Origin: an uncultured archaeon
GTDB taxonomy: Archaea; Asgardarchaeota; Thorarchaeia; Thorarchaeales; Thorarchaeaceae
NCBI GenBank assembly: GCA_964473825.1
Contig: CAYYQL010000016.1
Location: 1-57,059, forward strand
Reading direction: 5' to 3'
Length of the DNA: 57,059 nucleotides
Part shown: positions 11,243-16,909 of the stretch, piece after piece
Position numbering within the stretch: the first letter of the stretch is position 1
Layout of the letters: each line of letters begins with the position of its first letter
Program-made: the position numbers and the translations under genes
Notes under the pieces: generated by a model
The model's input: only the letters and a program-made list of their open reading frames with translations
What the model was told of the DNA's origin: nothing
Databases searched by the model: none

Positions 11243-12703
11243 ATGGAGATTAGTCGTACATCAATGAGGAACACAGAGTCCCTGATATACGACATTTTTG
11301 TCAGAACCACGAAAAGAGGCGTCGAGATATACACAATCGACTACGACGAGAAACTCAAAGTATTCTCTCCTGCCGGGAAAGAAACAAGTTCTCGAAAATG
11401 GACCTCCAAGGTCAGAACCGTAGCCATCGGTGATATCGATGCTGACGGTTATGATGATATTGTCGCAGGCACGAAAGACTGTGTAATAGTCATTGGCAAC
11501 AAAGGACAGGTCATCTATCAGATAGCAAAGTCTAGTCCGGTCATTACCTGTGATGCGGCCGATGTTGATGGCGACTATGCGGACGAGTTTGCAGCTGCCA
11601 TGCGGGACAACACGGTGTCCTTGTGGAACGATGACATGAAGCTGTTCACACGGTCGTTTCCGTCACCCGTTGTTTCTGTCAGACTAGAGAACATCACGGA
11701 TGATCCGGAATATGAGATAGTTGTAATGGAGCGCAGCGGCAATATCAGCATCCTATCTGCAGCTGGCTACCTGTTGAAGCAATTCACAGTTCCTTCGAAG
11801 ATACGAGTGGGTACCGTCCTGAACTTGGAGAACGACAAGCTGTTTGCCACAGGGGACAAATCGAACAATCTGAAGATTTGGGATATGGGAGGCCGATTAG
11901 TTCAGGAATTGAAACTCTCAGACCGCCCATTTGCCCTTGATGCAGATCGACATCCACGTAGTGACAGTCTTTACTTGGCCATTGGAACACGGCTTCCTGC
12001 CCTAGAGATATATCGTGTGAAGGGCGACACGATGTCTTCACTTACTCGACGAGTTATCGACGAAATATCTTCTACTAAGGAGACCGTCTACCGGCGAGCA
12101 ATTCGATGTGGTCATTGTGGTGCCCCAGTCTCGCCAGAGACTCCAAGCTGTGCGAATTGTGGGGCGATATTGGATGCATTACAGCCACAGCAGATTGATG
12201 AATTCATCAGTGAGACCATACTGTCTGTGACATCGCTCAATCCCCGCATCGCTTTGAGAGAACTTGACAGAGTCATCAGACGATCACTTCCCCGTCCCGC
12301 TGTCTACAACCTGCGCAGTCAGCTGCAGGAAATGGTCAGATGTGAGTTGATATCCGGCCACTTTGAAGATGATGGTAGAACCTTCGTCTTTACTGGCTTA
12401 AGAGGGGCTTTGGTTACCCCGTCCATGTCAAGACGCGATGCAAGGAAACTGCTATCCCGTGTGGTTTCTGGTAATAAGATCGAGCTCGGCGAGCTCCTTG
12501 ATATGAAGGCCGCACTGCAGGATCCTGACGTAGACCATGAGCTCGATGCGGCGACCATACGTAGAGCGCTTATTCTGCTGCGTGGCAAAGGACAGATTTC
12601 AGGCGAGTTCATTGACACGAAATCCTTCGCTTTCGAGTCAAAGGAAGAACTTGACAGAGTAGTTGATGAGATTATCGAGTTATTGAGTGCGCAAGGGAGT
12701 TAG
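11243..12703 (+). CDS. Cytoplasmic FG-GAP-like beta-propeller + Zn ribbon + two PCI-like winged-helix domains
   Basis: GDIDADGYDDIVAG, ADVDGDYADEFAAA, ENITDDPEYEIVV; WD-like LKIWD; CGHCG...CANCG; winged-helix ends ELISGHFEDDGRTFVF and GQISGEFIDTKSFAF; no signal peptide; start 11243 or 11264. Confidence 0.7.
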   Translation: MEISRTSMRNTESLIYDIFVRTTKRGVEIYTIDYDEKLKVFSPAGKETSSRKWTSKVRTVAIGDIDADGYDDIVAGTKDCVIVIGNKGQVIYQIAKSSPVITCDAADVDGDYADEFAAAMRDNTVSLWNDDMKLFTRSFPSPVVSVRLENITDDPEYEIVVMERSGNISILSAAGYLLKQFTVPSKIRVGTVLNLENDKLFATGDKSNNLKIWDMGGRLVQELKLSDRPFALDADRHPRSDSLYLAIGTRLPALEIYRVKGDTMSSLTRRVIDEISSTKETVYRRAIRCGHCGAPVSPETPSCANCGAILDALQPQQIDEFISETILSVTSLNPRIALRELDRVIRRSLPRPAVYNLRSQLQEMVRCELISGHFEDDGRTFVFTGLRGALVTPSMSRRDARKLLSRVVSGNKIELGELLDMKAALQDPDVDHELDAATIRRALILLRGKGQISGEFIDTKSFAFESKEELDRVVDEIIELLSAQGS

Positions 12704-12707
12704 GCAT

Positions 12708-15452
12708 ATGTTTGAAACCTGGAATATTACAAAGAAAGTGACAAGAGGCCTTAGCGCTTCAGTTATCATCTCCGTGCTTCTGATTGCTTCATACATGGTT
12801 TCTAGCGTGTATTTTATGTCAGAACAAAACACGGGTGAAGCCGCAGAAGCTTTGACTAGGGAGGAACTGGGAAGTCTGCAGAGAGTCACGGCTGATACTG
12901 CAACCTTCATTGAGGAGCGGATAGAGCAGTACTTCCATGGTGTCTACATTATGGAGGACTATGCCGAGAATTTATTCAACGGACGGTATAATGCTAGCCC
13001 GCGTCACTCCTACTTCTGGAATCCCAGTTTCGAGCTCGCCAATACGGGCTATACAGTCCCTAATCTGCAATCCATTGATGAGTATGAATCGGACAGCATC
13101 TCATTCGATGTCAGCTGTTACTATATGCCTCGAGACTACTACATCGATGACGATCCATTCCAATGGAATGATGATATGCGCTATGTCTTGGATACCTCCT
13201 CCAATATGGACAACGTATTCCGGTCCCTTCATGAGATGAGTTCGGACTACATCTGGTTGTATATGGGGTTTGACCTCTCACTCTCGGATCGACACCTGTT
13301 CCGGAACTACCCCTATGACAATCTGGAATATTTCTTGGACTGGTATGGAGAAGGGGAGGATTATGATCCCAATTCGGAGGAATGGTATGTCAATGCTGCC
13401 GAAATCTTGGATGGTTCCATAGCTGTCACAGAACCCTATGGCGATCCCTCCACTGGGCTCGTATTATCCATGGGTCGTCCCATCAGATTTGACAACAACA
13501 CTCTGATTGGTGTTGTTTCGGCTGACGTGACTCTTGACACAATTAACAACGAAGTACTCTCTCAGGAAATCAGTGAAAACGGGTATGCTTTCCTTCTTGG
13601 CACCACCGGGGGCCTGATAGCACACCCCTCGTTTACGGCTGAAGGCCAAGATATCTATGATGTCGAGTTTGGCGGCTCCACATCTTCAGAGGCCGTTGCA
13701 TTCTCATCGATTCTCCCTGACATTCTGACAAACAGCAGTGGCCAGATTGAATACACGAAGCAAGGCCGAAAATGGTTTCTAACATATGAGAGAGTCCCTA
13801 CAACTGGAATGGTTCTGTGTACGGTCACTCCTGAGACAGATGTGATCGAAGCTGCAATTGCTCTCTCTGCAGCGATTGGCCTTCAGAGCCTAGTAATCAT
13901 CGGAGTTCTTGTTGGTTGTGTAGCAGTCACAATCTATGTTTCCTCGAAGTATGCAGCCAGAAAAGGTGAAGAGATGGCCAAGCCGCTCGCACAAGCAACA
14001 GATGTCTTGGTCAATATGAGCCGGGGGGACTTGACTGGAATGGTTCCCATACATGACCTGCGGTATAAGGAACTGCAGATCACAATGGAGGCAATTCAGA
14101 ATCTCCAAGACTCGATGCGAGCTGGCAACAAAGAGTTCATCAGAGGGAACTTGTCACTTGCTCTGGAAACGTATACTCGGCTTCGACAGCTCTGTGTTGA
14201 TTTCAAGGTGATTCAAGGCATCCAGGCTGCAGACCTCAATATCGGAAATGTTCACAGACAAAGAGGCCAACTGCAAGAGGCATCGGCGAGGTATCAGTCT
14301 GCTGAGAAACTAGCTCGTGAGATGCTGAACAAAGCAAAGACCGACTTAGAACGAAAAGACGCCCAGGTGCGTATTGCTGATGTCATGCACAACTTCGGCG
14401 CCCTTGAGATGTCACCAAAGATGCAGAACTATCGCAAGGCCCTCACTCATCTGGAAGAAGCCTTTGAAATCAACAAGAAACTCGGAAACACTCGAGGTAT
14501 GGCCAATCAGTACGATACCATGGGGGTCTGTAAGATGGCCCTGAAGGAGTTTGATGAAGCCAGAGAGATGTTTGACAGAGCGCTTGAGATTCTTGAAGGA
14601 ACATACTATGAGCGGTCCAAATCGTATGTGTACTATCACAGAGGGATGATGTTCTACGAAATGGCAATGTTCGAAGATGCACGGTCCAATCTTGTTGAGG
14701 CTGCCAAGATGTCACAGGAGAACGAGGAATGGCCTCTTGCGGGGAGGTCGCTCTCACTTCTGGCTGATGTTCTTGAAGATATGGGCGAGCCAAGTCATGA
14801 AATCCGTCTTCAGGCGGAGAAGATTCTGGGTTCCACCGTTAGACAGCGAACAAGGCGTGCCATTGTCTTCGTCATTGATAAATCAGGGAGCATGGGGCAG
14901 AGCGGCAGAATAAAGGCTGCAGTTGCCGGCGCTCAGAGGATGGTTGATTCTGTAGCCCAACCCGAAGACAGTGTTGGTGTGTTGGCATTCGACACGGTAG
15001 TCAGCGAACTCCGCAGGCTTGCACCATTAGGCCCAGACTTTTCTACTGCAAGGAGGGAGATTGCCCGTGCCCTTCGCCTCGGCGGGGCCACAGCTTTCTA
15101 TGACGCACTCGGTCTGGCTCTCATGAACATTGCCAGCCAGCAGGATGCTGAACGGTGGATTGTCGCGCTTACCGATGGTGAGGACAACTCATCGAGAACC
15201 CATAATGAAGACTCCATCGTCCGGCTGGCCAATCGTTTGGAGGGCGACATCAAACTGCGAATCATCGGAGTCATGTGCAGTTCAGAACATGAACGGGTCC
15301 TGGAGCGAATGTGCAAGCGGATTGAAGGTGCAACCTACCTGCCGGTTTCAGAGGCTGGAAAGGAACAGGAAGGAATCCTTCAGAGATTCGAGGGCATCGA
15401 GGACGAGATGCAGACACAACTCGAGATGGGAGGAACACAGGTGGATTTCTAA
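12708..15452 (+). CDS. Membrane receptor: TM-dCache-TM-HAMP-TPR repeats-vWA
   Basis: TM1 SVIISVLLIASYMVSSVYF; Cache motifs YDPNSEEWY, TEPYGD, IGVVSADV, GYAFLL..G.LIAHP; TM2; HAMP AKPL...RGDL...E; TPR-like helices; vWA MIDAS DKSGS/T/LTDGED; ATG at 12708. Confidence 0.85.
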   Translation: MFETWNITKKVTRGLSASVIISVLLIASYMVSSVYFMSEQNTGEAAEALTREELGSLQRVTADTATFIEERIEQYFHGVYIMEDYAENLFNGRYNASPRHSYFWNPSFELANTGYTVPNLQSIDEYESDSISFDVSCYYMPRDYYIDDDPFQWNDDMRYVLDTSSNMDNVFRSLHEMSSDYIWLYMGFDLSLSDRHLFRNYPYDNLEYFLDWYGEGEDYDPNSEEWYVNAAEILDGSIAVTEPYGDPSTGLVLSMGRPIRFDNNTLIGVVSADVTLDTINNEVLSQEISENGYAFLLGTTGGLIAHPSFTAEGQDIYDVEFGGSTSSEAVAFSSILPDILTNSSGQIEYTKQGRKWFLTYERVPTTGMVLCTVTPETDVIEAAIALSAAIGLQSLVIIGVLVGCVAVTIYVSSKYAARKGEEMAKPLAQATDVLVNMSRGDLTGMVPIHDLRYKELQITMEAIQNLQDSMRAGNKEFIRGNLSLALETYTRLRQLCVDFKVIQGIQAADLNIGNVHRQRGQLQEASARYQSAEKLAREMLNKAKTDLERKDAQVRIADVMHNFGALEMSPKMQNYRKALTHLEEAFEINKKLGNTRGMANQYDTMGVCKMALKEFDEAREMFDRALEILEGTYYERSKSYVYYHRGMMFYEMAMFEDARSNLVEAAKMSQENEEWPLAGRSLSLLADVLEDMGEPSHEIRLQAEKILGSTVRQRTRRAIVFVIDKSGSMGQSGRIKAAVAGAQRMVDSVAQPEDSVGVLAFDTVVSELRRLAPLGPDFSTARREIARALRLGGATAFYDALGLALMNIASQQDAERWIVALTDGEDNSSRTHNEDSIVRLANRLEGDIKLRIIGVMCSSEHERVLERMCKRIEGATYLPVSEAGKEQEGILQRFEGIEDEMQTQLEMGGTQVDF

Positions 15453-15466
15453 GAGGAGGGAAATAG

Positions 15467-16909
15467 ATGGCAAAGAATAGAACAACCGGAACTAGCTTCA
15501 AGAGAACAATGCTGGTGGCCTTTCTGGTGATCACGACCGCATCTGTCGCTCTAACGACTGCTTTCTCAATGGGCTTTGGGGTATTGATAGGTGACACAAC
15601 GACTTCTCGGAGCATAGATGCTCTCAAGGGTCAGGCAATCAATGATATGTTGGCCACAGGTGTCACCACATCAAATGTGATAAACCAAAAACTCACCACT
15701 GCTGAAGGCATGGTTATCAGCATGGCTGAAGAGATAGAACGACTCTTCAGTGACGAGAATACTTACTTCGCCCGAGAGACCTACTACGACTACTTCTTCG
15801 AGAACCCCTCTGAAGGCCCACATCCCGCCGATATAGAGTTTGACCCGGACTACGGAATCAATGTGTCGTGGGAGTACAGCAGCTGGTATATTCCTGGTTC
15901 TGACAGCTCGAACTGGGAAACCTATGCAGGTGACTACTCAGAACGCCTTGGCCTTGTGTCGAACATGGATAATGCCTTCAAATCCATTCGAAATCGAGTT
16001 CCCGAGTTCAGGTGGCTCTATTTCACATTCGCAGACAATGACATGTTCATCAACTACCCCGGGAGTATCCTCGGCGGAACCGATGCAGAGAGGCAGCTGG
16101 ACCCGTGGTATCCCACTCTTGATGATTGGTATCTTGAGATTGAAGCAGGAGATGGAGATATCGTCTTTGTAGAACCATACTATGATCCAATTGATGAAGT
16201 ACTTCTGATATCGATTGGTAAGGCTGTGTTTTATGAGAATAACCAGATAATCGGCGTCATTGCAGGAGACATAACAATCCAAGACATCAAGAATCGCATT
16301 TTGGACATAGATGTGTATGACAATGGTTACGCAGCTCTGATACAGAGCGATGGCATGGTAGTTGCACATCCTGAAGTACCCGATTCTGCATACGAAGAGG
16401 GGCTTCCCGCATTCAGTGCGGTCGAATCAGATTCGCTAACACCCCTCCAGATCGATGCAATCACTTCAGGAGAGGACGGTTCTCTCGAATACAGACGAGG
16501 AGTAGAAGAACGGCTCCTTGTGTATACCCCTGTTGGCAAGAGCGGATATATCTGTGTGCTCATAGTCCCCCTCGATGAGGTCTTGGATGCGATTCCTTTG
16601 TTACAGAATCGGATTACAACCACTCTACGACTCACGATTGAGCAGATCATGTATGTCGGGCTGGTTGGCATAATCATCTCAGGCATTCTCGGCTATTGGG
16701 TTGCAGGCACAGTGACAGGACCATTGCAGGAAATAATGGAGCGAATACGAAAGGCTGCAGTGGTGAAATTCACCAAGAGCTCTATAGAGCCGCTAGAGCT
16801 GAAACTCAATGTCAAACAGACGTCTCGGGGTGACGAGATTGGTGACCTATCCCGGGCATTCGACAGCCTGATGGATGTTCTTATTGATGAAACAGAGGAG
16901 GAAGAATGA
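15467..16909 (+). CDS. TM-dCache-TM-HAMP protein with no output domain
   Basis: GAGGAGG RBS; two TM segments; WYPTLDDWY, EPYYD, IGVIAGDI, GYAALI..G.VVAHP; HAMP TGPL...DEIGDLSRAFDSL; ends in an acidic tail. Confidence 0.85.
   Translation: MAKNRTTGTSFKRTMLVAFLVITTASVALTTAFSMGFGVLIGDTTTSRSIDALKGQAINDMLATGVTTSNVINQKLTTAEGMVISMAEEIERLFSDENTYFARETYYDYFFENPSEGPHPADIEFDPDYGINVSWEYSSWYIPGSDSSNWETYAGDYSERLGLVSNMDNAFKSIRNRVPEFRWLYFTFADNDMFINYPGSILGGTDAERQLDPWYPTLDDWYLEIEAGDGDIVFVEPYYDPIDEVLLISIGKAVFYENNQIIGVIAGDITIQDIKNRILDIDVYDNGYAALIQSDGMVVAHPEVPDSAYEEGLPAFSAVESDSLTPLQIDAITSGEDGSLEYRRGVEERLLVYTPVGKSGYICVLIVPLDEVLDAIPLLQNRITTTLRLTIEQIMYVGLVGIIISGILGYWVAGTVTGPLQEIMERIRKAAVVKFTKSSIEPLELKLNVKQTSRGDEIGDLSRAFDSLMDVLIDETEEEE

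What the first reader, a model, noticed from the sequence alone, without database searches (positions are those of the whole stretch)
12708..15452. dCache-HAMP-TPR-vWA receptor, possibly a eukaryote-like architecture
Seen: HAMP runs directly into several TPR-like repeats (AGNKEFIRGNLSLALETY...LNIGNVH...) and a C-terminal vWA with intact MIDAS (DKSGS, T, LTDG). This is not a standard prokaryotic output. From memory and unverified: Cache-TM-TPR-vWA proteins with a similar 'NIGNIH' first repeat occur as expanded families in ciliates and other protists, which would make this a candidate eukaryotic signature protein. Unlike calcium-channel alpha2delta subunits, the vWA here is cytoplasmic rather than inserted in the Cache domain.
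Basis: partly seen in the sequence, partly recalled or inferred. Interest (0 to 1): 0.8.

Follow-up and report, generated by a model that had tools for sequence, protein, structure and literature searches.

The report
Asgard sensor with TPR-vWA output arm
This gene encodes a membrane sensor of an Asgard archaeon whose inner end is a protein-docking arm rather than an enzyme; close relatives with the same layout turn up only in other Asgard archaea, in giant-virus genome bins and in golden algae, which looks like a signalling gene pair that moved from Asgard archaea into the eukaryotic world.

Summary

The window is a Thorarchaeota genome. The family is single-copy and occurs in 125 of 400 sampled Asgard genomes (40 of 85 genera). 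The 80 best of 98 relatives found in a pattern scan of 185,579 prokaryotic species genomes were all archaeal and none bacterial.

The gene sits in a conserved block: beta-propeller/Zn-ribbon protein, long receptor, short dCache-HAMP paralogue, arginine decarboxylase. This scan had already described that operon on another genome (e1-4834932).

New here:
- Specific full-length homologues exist in three giant-virus genome bins and in eukaryotes, including the chrysophyte Chlorochromonas/Ochromonas danica, an MMETSP transcript and a contig with eukaryote-only neighbours. No ciliate was found.
- In the eukaryotic forms the short and long genes are fused.
- Paralogue-rooted trees place the virus and eukaryote clade inside Asgard diversity, next to a Heimdall-labelled subclade (AU p=0.048, borderline).
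- A complex model docks the helix between TPR and vWA onto the propeller's top face (ipSAE 0.67, best control 0.00).

Reading: an Asgard-born scaffold-output receptor pair was exported to giant viruses and chrysophytes. It is probably not a LECA-inherited signature protein.

The parts
11243..12703 (+). Upstream partner gene: cytoplasmic beta-propeller (about residues 1-260), helix, Zn ribbon, and two winged-helix-like alpha/beta modules
   Evidence: Pfam FG-GAP_3, BBS2_Mid and Zn-ribbon hits. AF2 model pLDDT 80.5. Propeller fold Z 22 against NHL and WD40 propellers. It is a conserved neighbour in Thor, Hod/Heimdall, Loki, Hermod and Sigyn loci. It is predicted to bind the receptor.
12708..15452 (+). 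Long receptor gene (914 aa plus stop): dCache_1, TM, HAMP-like, TPR, vWA
12762..12818 (+). TM1 (residues 19-37 of the 914-aa protein)
   Evidence: hydropathy scan; helix in the AF2 model
13350..13823 (+). Core of the dCache_1 match (residues 215-372). The PctA-type pocket keeps Y219, W226, Y227, Y244 and D273 but has Glu224 where the carboxylate-binding Arg126 sits
   Evidence: Pfam; phmmer alignment to PctA 5ltx; column counts
13872..13928 (+). TM2 (residues 389-407)
13929..14144 (+). Degenerate HAMP: AS1 continues from TM2, loop at 439-453, AS2 at 454-479 with the GDL...E..L motif
   Evidence: family alignment; AF2 model; Pfam HAMP in 21 of 42 homologues but not here
14151..14843 (+). TPR solenoid, about 12 helices (residues 482-712), beginning with the family motif R-x-G-N ... 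N-I-G-N-V-H-R
14784..14843 (+). Last helix before the vWA (residues 693-712), with motif S-H-E-I-R-x3-E: the predicted docking site for the propeller
   Evidence: interface residues of the complex model; motif conservation; co-occurrence with the propeller neighbour
14853..15416 (+). Cytoplasmic vWA domain (residues 716-903) with MIDAS D724-x-S726-x-S728, T795 and D823
   Evidence: Pfam; invariant columns; Rossmann-like alternation of strands and helices in the AF2 model
15467..16909 (+). Short paralogue: TM, dCache_1, TM, HAMP, ending a few residues after HAMP
   Evidence: It lies directly downstream of the long gene in Thor, Heimdall, Hod, Hermod, Sigyn and Loki loci, beside it in giant-virus contigs, and is fused to it in eukaryotes.
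16906..18705 (+). Arginine decarboxylase (speA); its start overlaps the stop of the short receptor
   Evidence: NCBIfam PRK05354 350.6 bits and Pfam Orn_Arg_deC_N; adjacency conserved in Thor and in several Heimdall and Hod loci

Best explanation
The gene encodes the long subunit of a two-receptor module that arose in Asgard archaea. An extracellular dCache_1 domain senses a small molecule. In this Thor lineage the ligand is probably an amine such as agmatine or a polyamine rather than an amino acid, because the carboxylate-binding Arg is replaced by Glu and speA is in the operon. The signal crosses the membrane through TM2 and a degenerate HAMP, whose second helix is continuous with a TPR solenoid that ends in a MIDAS-bearing vWA domain. 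The output is therefore not enzymatic: it is a change in what the TPR-vWA arm binds. The best candidate client is the beta-propeller/Zn-ribbon protein encoded just upstream, whose conserved top face is predicted to clamp the conserved helix between TPR and vWA. The short dCache-HAMP paralogue encoded just downstream most likely pairs with the long one, probably as a HAMP heterodimer, because the two genes stay adjacent in all lineages and are fused into one polypeptide in eukaryotes. In evolutionary terms, the long and short genes were exported together from a Heimdall-like Asgard lineage to giant viruses and chrysophyte algae. Shown: architecture, topology, MIDAS, phyletic range, gene-order conservation, the fusion, and the tree positions. 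Inferred: ligand class, heterodimer, propeller docking, direction of transfer, and any downstream effect.
For: Architecture and topology. MIDAS core (D724, S726, T795, D823) invariant. Range: all 120 listed full-length hits carry Asgard names where named. The 80 best of 98 relatives in GTDB species genomes are archaeal, nearly all Asgard-labelled, and include the cultured Lokiarchaeum ossiferum. The family is in 125 of 400 Asgard genomes, 40 of 85 genera and 66 of 85 genomes in the window's own family, mostly as one copy. Conserved block propeller-long-short-speA. Eukaryotes: P0291 is from EukProt Chlorochromonas danica; there are further EukProt entries and one MMETSP transcript. P0286 lies in a 45.6-kb contig beside BART, CCDC81, RWD, OST3/6, FAST and G-beta genes. 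Giant viruses: L085, L102 and L103 are IMG/VR GVMAG contigs; the L085 and L102 bins carry NCLDV capsid genes; P0159 is a UniRef 'viral metagenome' entry. Fusion and nesting: in the paralogue-rooted tree the long/short split has support 99/99; eukaryotic N-halves plus viral short genes fall inside the Asgard short clade; eukaryotic middles plus viral long genes (97) are sister to a Heimdall-labelled clade (98). In the full-length tree the non-Asgard clade has aLRT 100 and its union with the Heimdall-type clade has 100. Forcing Asgard monophyly costs 29.5 lnL, AU p=0.048. Ligand: Arg126 of PctA aligns with Glu224, with the amine-binding residues kept; the role of R126 is stated in PMC10589655. 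Partner: ipSAE 0.67, 0.67 and 0.58 against a best control of 0.00, a mark reached by 58 of 80 solved complexes and 2 of 110 mismatched pairs. The runs agree in at least 58% of contacts and the partner's pLDDT is at least 74 (own alignments were used, so those counts hold only roughly). Interface residues are conserved on both sides: Y16 in 25 of 26, Y34 in 23 of 26, S55 in 22 of 26 and R58 in 20 of 26 sequences; H697, R700 and E704 in about 20 of 42. The helix motif co-occurs with the propeller neighbour: 51 loci have both and 14 have neither.
Against: No experiment exists for any member. HAMP is not detectable by Pfam in this protein. The complex score is a model's own confidence and no MIDAS ligand was identified; the MIDAS is the most conserved feature, yet the predicted interface does not use it. 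Hermod and Sigyn loci have the propeller but only a variant helix motif. The propeller was not found next to the viral or eukaryotic genes, so the output there must differ or the partner is encoded elsewhere. About a third of family members keep Arg126, including the Heimdall-type, Loki and viral forms, so the amine reading applies only to some lineages. The trees are 'quick' or 'fast' searches on long, compositionally biased branches, and the AU test is borderline under a simple model. Virus assignment rests on binning: capsid, VLTF3 and D5 genes lie on other contigs of the bin.
Confidence: 0.6

Rival explanations
1. Genuine eukaryotic signature protein: the module was inherited vertically from the Asgard ancestor into early eukaryotes, lost in almost all lineages, kept in chrysophytes, and picked up by giant viruses from their hosts.
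For: The non-Asgard clade is sister to a Heimdallarchaeota-labelled subclade, where eukaryotes are expected to attach. The family is absent from the bacteria sampled. An unfused group of unknown origin (P0231, P0244, P0245, P0255) branches at the base of the virus-plus-eukaryote clade, and two of its members have no DNA contig on record, which would fit transcriptome-only eukaryotic sources.
Against: Only one named eukaryote, a chrysophyte, and a handful of unnamed EukProt and MMETSP entries were found in collections that include UniRef, nr, EukProt and MMETSP. Hodarchaeales copies group with Thor, not with the eukaryotic clade. Viral diversity (at least 14 divergent clusters) exceeds the eukaryotic diversity seen.
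Confidence: 0.12
2. Reverse direction: the module arose in eukaryotes or giant viruses and was acquired by Asgard archaea.
For: Without the paralogue root, the TPR-vWA tree shows only a clean split between Asgard and non-Asgard sequences. The AU rejection of Asgard monophyly is borderline.
Against: The family is present in at least eight Asgard lineages, in an operon with conserved order. Paralogue rooting nests the non-Asgard clade inside Asgard in both the long and the short subtree. Long-branch attraction to the outgroup would pull the long viral and eukaryotic branches to the base, which is the opposite of what is seen. dCache-HAMP receptors are typical of prokaryotes.
Confidence: 0.08
3. 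Different output: the propeller is not the client. The vWA MIDAS binds another acidic ligand or a metal-dependent partner encoded elsewhere, the TPRs serve oligomerisation, and the short paralogue is an independent sensor or a decoy.
For: MIDAS is the most conserved feature, but the predicted interface lies outside it. Viral, eukaryotic and Heimdall-type members lack both the propeller neighbour and the helix motif yet keep the TPR-vWA. Module variants exist without Cache, with a single TM, or with 8 TM helices.
Against: The propeller is a neighbour across distant Asgard lineages despite 20-25% identity. Its conserved top-face residues meet a conserved helix motif. No MoxR-type ATPase or other usual vWA partner lies nearby.
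Confidence: 0.2

Closest known systems
dCache_1 amino-acid chemoreceptors (Pseudomonas PctA/B/C, Vibrio Mlp24/Mlp37)
   Same: Same TM-dCache_1-TM-HAMP front end. They are the best PDB sequence and fold matches (PctA E 5.7e-11; Mlp24 TM-score about 0.75 by target). The amine-binding pocket residues are conserved.
   Different: The output is a TPR-vWA arm rather than a methyl-accepting signalling domain. The carboxylate-binding Arg126 is Glu in this protein.
Calcium-channel alpha2delta and CACHD1 (eukaryotic Cache plus vWA proteins)
   Same: They combine dCache_1 and a MIDAS-type vWA in one protein. They give weak sequence and fold hits (8s7c E 2e-5; alpha2delta Foldseek E about 1e-8).
   Different: In alpha2delta both domains are extracellular, the vWA precedes or is embedded in the Cache region, and there is no HAMP or TPR. 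Here the vWA is cytoplasmic and C-terminal. The likeness is at domain level only and shows no orthology.
Bacterial dCache-HAMP receptors with SpoIIE/PP2C, GAF or HisKA outputs
   Same: The sensor, membrane topology and HAMP are the same. These are the nearest whole-model neighbours in the ESM Atlas after the Thor cluster.
   Different: Their outputs are enzymes. None carries a TPR-vWA.
Giant-virus and chrysophyte homologues (for example UniRef A0A6C0EBL0; EukProt EP01039 Chlorochromonas danica P003973)
   Same: These are true family members: alignable end to end (24% identity, E 2e-54 over residues 136-878 for the GVMAG protein), with the same motifs and MIDAS and the same pairing with a short dCache-HAMP gene.
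   Different: The viral gene order is short then long. Eukaryotic proteins are short-plus-long fusions of 1,520-1,690 aa with four TM helices and Cys-rich ectodomains. One adds a PARP domain. They retain Arg126. No propeller neighbour was found.
Bacteroides BatA/BatB-type membrane vWA-TPR proteins (recalled from memory, not tested here)
   Same: They are membrane-anchored proteins that combine vWA and TPR.
   Different: As recalled, the domain order is the opposite, they lack a Cache sensor and HAMP, and they are associated with a MoxR ATPase. No such ATPase lies near this gene.

Membership tests
dCache_1 extracytoplasmic sensor (PF02743) | Profile match above the curated cut-off, located between two TM helices | tested here: met
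   72.5 bits against a cut-off of 45; TM helices at 26-44 and 396-414 of P0001; double-PDC fold in the AF2 model with pLDDT above 90
dCache_1AA amino-acid sensor subfamily (Gumerov motif) | Y121, R126, W128, Y129, Y144 and D173 (PctA numbering) all present | tested here: not met
   R126 aligns with Glu224; the other five residues are present. Heimdall-type, Loki and viral relatives do meet the motif.
HAMP (PF00672) | Profile match; helix-connector-helix directly after TM2 | tested here: inconclusive
   No Pfam hit in this protein at E<=0.1. The homologous columns hit HAMP in 21 of 42 relatives. The AF2 model shows helix, 15-residue loop, helix. A dimeric four-helix bundle was not modelled.
TPR | Repeated helix pairs matching TPR profiles | tested here: met
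   TPR_12 63.5 bits (cut-off 30.1), TPR_2 42.7, TPR_1 41.6; about 12 helices at 482-712
vWA with MIDAS | vWA profile match and the D-x-S-x-S, T, D metal-site residues | tested here: met
   VWA_2 48.7 (cut-off 27) and VWA 41.1 (cut-off 23.8); D724, S726, S728, T795 and D823 present and conserved across the family, with D724, S726, T795 and D823 invariant. Metal binding itself cannot be tested here.
alpha2delta / CACHD1 | Extracellular vWA followed by or embedded in dCache domains; no cytoplasmic signalling arm | tested here: not met
   The topology places the vWA in the cytoplasm after TM2, HAMP and TPR
Eukaryotic signature protein (Asgard-eukaryote family inherited through LECA) | Rare or absent in bacteria and other archaea | tested here: met
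   The 80 best of 98 relatives in 185,579 species genomes are all archaeal, and all but one 'Methanobacteriota'-labelled MAG are Asgard-labelled or unlabelled archaea. This was a pattern-based scan, so distant bacterial members could have been missed.
Eukaryotic signature protein (Asgard-eukaryote family inherited through LECA) | Specific eukaryotic homologues with the same domain order | tested here: met
   Chlorochromonas danica and other EukProt proteins, an MMETSP transcript, and a contig with eukaryotic neighbours
Eukaryotic signature protein (Asgard-eukaryote family inherited through LECA) | Broad distribution across eukaryotic supergroups that traces to LECA | tested here: inconclusive
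   Only chrysophyte-type hits were found. The word-indexed searches are not exhaustive, and no per-proteome scan of eukaryotes was possible.

The most novel reading that the evidence does not exclude
A ligand-gated scaffold receptor pair invented in Asgard archaea was captured as a two-gene unit by giant viruses and passed to (or exchanged with) chrysophyte algae, where the two subunits fused. This would be a documented Asgard-to-NCLDV-to-eukaryote route for a signalling module, and the natural fusion would show that the long and short receptors work as a heterodimer.
Probability: 0.45. Interest if true: 0.75.

Novelty: new variant of a known kind. Interest (0 to 1): 0.66.

Why it matters
Cache-HAMP receptors are the commonest extracellular sensors of prokaryotes, and almost all of them drive an enzyme or the chemotaxis machinery. 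A widespread Asgard version that drives a TPR-vWA protein-docking arm instead would be a different way of signalling: recruiting or releasing a client protein.

The family's range is unusual. It covers many Asgard lineages, several giant-virus bins and chrysophyte algae, with no bacteria seen. That makes it a concrete case for asking how genes moved between Asgard archaea, giant viruses and eukaryotes.

The eukaryotic short-plus-long fusion gives a testable prediction about how the subunits pair. The link to speA and the Arg-to-Glu pocket change give a testable ligand. A member in the cultured Lokiarchaeum ossiferum makes experiments possible.

Tried and rejected
- Acidic tail as MIDAS ligand. 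I asked whether the acidic C-terminal tail of the short receptor (D-E-T-E-E-E-E) is the MIDAS ligand. The tail is acidic only in Thor and is Lys-rich or different in Heimdall, Loki, Hermod and the viruses, so I dropped the idea.
- Pattern scan with A1. The search for related loci with the 34-sequence alignment A1 found no stretch conserved enough. The 12-sequence subset A2 worked.
- AU test in treekit. It did not finish, lost its answer, and was then killed. I replaced it with a hand-run IQ-TREE constraint and AU test under LG+F+G4.
- Same-contig virus hallmarks. In bin G401 the receptor is on contig C1, while capsid and VLTF3 genes are on C4 and D5 is on C8. The virus assignment therefore rests on binning and composition.
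- Contig L084. This 354-kb AT-rich contig could not be searched as a record.
- C-terminal half of the propeller protein. The wide PDB search was filled by propeller matches. The winged-helix reading rests only on the secondary-structure pattern of the model.
- Literature. I found no paper describing a Cache-HAMP-TPR-vWA family in Asgard archaea or giant viruses. The assembly accession GCA_013565615 was not found in any paper.
- MoxR or AAA+ partner. None lies among the flanking genes, which encode a metallo-beta-lactamase-fold protein, an HhH-GPD glycosylase, MGMT, a thiamine-binding protein and a Ras-family GTPase.
- Ciliates. No ciliate-labelled protein appeared in any search. These searches are not exhaustive.
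- Eukaryotic species behind L089. I did not identify it.
Full report
**What is there**

An ORF spans window:12687-15452(+). The ATG at 12708 lies 5 bases after the stop of the upstream gene and gives a 914-aa product identical to a database protein.

Pfam matches are all above the curated cut-offs:
- dCache_1 at residues 222-379 of the 921-aa frame
- three TPR_12 stretches between 480 and 680
- VWA_2 and VWA at 726-877

Two strongly hydrophobic helices, at 26-44 and 396-414, bracket the Cache domain. The Cache domain is therefore outside the cell and everything after residue 414 is cytoplasmic.

An AlphaFold2 model built on 42 homologues has mean pLDDT 84.7. In 914-aa numbering it shows:
- a double-PDC ectodomain
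- TM2 continuing as one long helix to residue 438
- a low-confidence 15-residue loop
- a second helix at 454-479 that runs without a break into about 12 TPR helices (482-712)
- an alpha/beta vWA fold at 716-903

The MIDAS residues D724, S726, S728, T795 and D823 are present. D724, S726, T795 and D823 are invariant in every family alignment made.

Pfam HAMP does not hit this protein, but it hits the homologous segment in 21 of 42 relatives. The G-D-L...E-I..L motif of HAMP helix 2 is visible in the family alignment.

**Whose gene it is**

All named full-length hits are from Asgard archaea: Thor-, Hermod-, Loki-, Sif-, Hod- and Odinarchaeota. The nearest are Thorarchaeota, so the window is a Thorarchaeota genome.

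- A pattern scan of one genome for each of 185,579 prokaryotic species found 98 relatives. The 80 best are all archaeal. They include Heimdall, Sigyn and the cultured Lokiarchaeum ossiferum, with one MAG labelled Methanobacteriota and no bacterium.
- In 400 sampled genomes of the phylum the TPR-vWA module is present in 125. That covers 40 of 85 genera and 66 of 85 genomes in the window's own family, nearly always as one copy. The window's genome has one copy.
- In the ESM Atlas the whole architecture is found only in a Thorarchaeota cluster. Bacterial neighbours share only dCache-HAMP, joined to SpoIIE, GAF or kinase outputs.

**Genomic context**

In almost every Thor locus the order is propeller/Zn-ribbon protein, long receptor, short dCache-HAMP protein, arginine decarboxylase.

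- The short paralogue follows the long gene directly in Heimdall, Hod, Hermod, Sigyn and Loki as well.
- A propeller gene of the same kind (20-25% identity) is also a neighbour in those lineages, downstream or on the other strand.
- speA adjacency holds in Thor and in several Heimdall and Hod loci.
- No MoxR-type ATPase is nearby.

An earlier follow-up in this scan described the same four-gene operon on another genome (e1-4834932). I re-derived its gene-order claims independently.

**The eukaryote question**

An exhaustive HMMER search of 1.84 billion representatives with the HAMP-TPR-vWA half gave many single-stretch, full-module hits. Besides the Asgard-like proteins, three further groups appeared.

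1. Long forms of 1,520-1,690 aa.
   - One is EukProt EP01039 Chlorochromonas danica (Ochromonas danica, a chrysophyte).
   - Others are EukProt entries and an MMETSP transcript.
   - One lies in a 45.6-kb contig whose neighbours carry eukaryote-only families: ARL2-binding BART, CCDC81, RWD, OST3/OST6, FAST and G-beta WD40.
2. Proteins of 860-890 aa with the full Asgard-type architecture in AT-rich contigs (28-32% GC) of 96-137 kb, rich in ORFans.
   - Their neighbours include collagen repeats, ankyrin, ATG8, NFACT, DPP3 and photolyase genes.
   - Three are IMG/VR giant-virus bins. Two of these bins carry several NCLDV capsid genes. One protein is a UniRef 'viral metagenome' entry.
   - The capsid, VLTF3 and D5 genes are on other contigs of the bin, so the virus assignment rests on binning and composition.
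3. An unfused group of 930-990 aa of unknown origin.

The viral protein aligns with the window's protein from the Cache domain to the end of the vWA (24% identity, E 2e-54). All these groups keep the R-F-G-N...N-N-x-G-N first-repeat motif and the MIDAS. The similarity is therefore specific to the family and not generic TPR or vWA likeness. No ciliate protein was seen.

**Fusion and direction**

Viral contigs carry a roughly 500-aa dCache(-HAMP) gene directly upstream of the long gene.

The eukaryotic long forms have four TM helices. Their N-terminal halves match short receptors over the full length, weakly (E 1e-5 to 6e-8). Their middle parts match the Cache region of long receptors (E 3e-22).

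A tree of the dCache-TM-HAMP region was built from 72 sequences with long and short paralogues rooting each other. It used IQ-TREE under an LG+C20 PMSF model, a quick search and SH-aLRT support. It shows:
- The two paralogues separate with support 99/99.
- Eukaryotic N-halves and viral short genes sit together (93) inside the Asgard short clade.
- Eukaryotic middles and viral long genes sit together (97) as sister to a Heimdall-labelled subclade (98), inside the Asgard long clade.

Other trees agree:
- The TPR-vWA tree is compatible with this placement.
- A full-length tree gives aLRT 100 for the non-Asgard clade and 100 for its union with the Heimdall-type clade.
- Forcing the Asgard long receptors to be monophyletic costs 29.5 log-likelihood units, with AU p=0.048 under LG+F+G4. 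This is borderline.

Attraction of the long viral and eukaryotic branches to the outgroup would push them to the base, not into a nested position. I conclude three things:
- The eukaryotic proteins are short-plus-long fusions (well supported).
- Both genes travelled together (well supported).
- The source was an Asgard lineage (favoured, not proven).

The narrow eukaryotic range argues against inheritance through LECA, though that cannot be excluded.

**How it probably works**

Sensor:
- PctA is the best PDB sequence match. The pocket residues Y121, W128, Y129, Y144 and D173 are conserved, but R126 aligns with Glu224. R126 hydrogen-bonds the ligand's carboxylate (PMC10589655).
- Glu or Asp at this site is typical of Thor, Hod and some other lineages (16 of 42). 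Heimdall-type, Loki and viral members keep Arg (15 of 42).
- Together with the speA linkage, this suggests an amine ligand such as agmatine or a polyamine in this lineage, and amino acids in the ancestral state. This is inference.

Transmission:
- HAMP helix 2 is continuous with the first TPR helix, so a HAMP rearrangement would lever the whole solenoid.

Subunits:
- Conserved adjacency in all lineages and the eukaryotic fusion point to a long/short heterodimer. This is inference of the Rosetta-stone type.

Output:
- A complex prediction of the TPR-vWA half with the upstream propeller protein passed its controls. ipSAE was 0.67, 0.67 and 0.58, with a best control of 0.00. That mark was reached by 58 of 80 solved complexes and 2 of 110 mismatched pairs. 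The runs agree in at least 58% of contacts and the partner's pLDDT is at least 74. I used my own alignments, so those counts hold only roughly.
- The interface is the last helix before the vWA (residues 693-712, motif S-H-x-x-R-x3-E) lying on the top face of the propeller.
- The propeller's contact residues are conserved: Y16 in 25 of 26, Y34 in 23 of 26, S55 in 22 of 26 and R58 in 20 of 26 sequences.
- The helix motif co-occurs with a propeller neighbour. 51 loci have both, 14 have neither, 11 Hermod and Sigyn loci have a variant motif, and 4 have the motif but no detected propeller. Related loci are not independent of one another.
- The model supports binding but does not show it.
- The propeller protein also has a Zn ribbon and two winged-helix-like modules. 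Their role (DNA binding or scaffolding) is open.
- The ligand of the invariant MIDAS was not identified. This is the main gap in the mechanism.

**Comparison and novelty**

- The front end is an ordinary dCache_1-HAMP receptor.
- The combination of Cache and vWA recalls alpha2delta and CACHD1, but there both domains are extracellular and there is no HAMP or TPR.
- I found no paper describing this family.

I class it as a new variant of a known kind: a Cache-HAMP receptor with a non-enzymatic TPR-vWA scaffold output. It has an unusual Asgard, giant-virus and chrysophyte distribution.

Noticed in passing
window:20228-21139(-): Ras/Rab-family small GTPase (Pfam Ras 146.6 bits, Roc, Arf), a classic Asgard eukaryote-like protein. 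Another first-stage note reports an in-frame amber codon after it.
   Followed up: no
window:21775-27522(-): A 1,915-aa protein with NosD/right-handed beta-helix and Big_13 domains, probably a giant surface protein.
   Followed up: no
L083 (VGTL01000063.1) and proteins P0141, P0149, P0155, P0156, P0172, P0179: A distinct clade of the family whose only named member is a MAG labelled 'Methanobacteriota archaeon' from a deep lake. Either the label is wrong or the family reaches beyond Asgard. It has no propeller or short neighbour in the flanks.
   Followed up: partly
P0131, P0134, P0166 (505-533 aa); P0171 (806 aa); roughly 580-aa ORFs in family f22 genomes: The HAMP-TPR-vWA module also occurs behind a single TM helix without Cache, and behind an 8-TM domain. 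It therefore behaves as a portable output module.
   Followed up: partly
P0289 (2,134 aa, Logan contig): A long-form relative that carries an N-terminal PARP catalytic domain in front of the two Cache units and the vWA (Pfam PARP 42.9 bits).
   Followed up: no
L089:10001-14842 and its flanks: In the eukaryotic contig the stretch holding the receptor gene has 47% G+C, against 37-38% in the flanking 5-kb blocks. This could reflect a foreign origin or only coding density.
   Followed up: no
ESM Atlas: Fifteen to sixteen clusters of 1,300-1,400-aa 'hypothetical proteins' with no common Pfam family and no recorded taxa score 0.97-0.98 by language-model features against both the Thor and the eukaryotic protein. 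A 1,145-aa cluster carries MCP-like_PDC_1 plus VWA_4. Their origin is unknown and they could widen the family's range.
   Followed up: no
L104 (JGI 3300042934, 13.6-kb contig, 49% G+C): An unfused 988-aa family member (P0255) lies convergent with a 534-aa dCache gene among ORFans. Its group (P0231, P0244, P0245, P0255) branches at the base of the virus-plus-eukaryote clade. Two members have no DNA contig on record.
   Followed up: partly
L084 (JGI 3300050207, 354-kb contig, 29% G+C): A fused 1,521-aa form (P0170) sits among intron-less genes for U-box/ankyrin, C2H2 and CCCH zinc-finger, Sel1 and RNase T proteins. The contig looks like giant-virus DNA or a very AT-rich protist, and this is unresolved.
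   Followed up: partly
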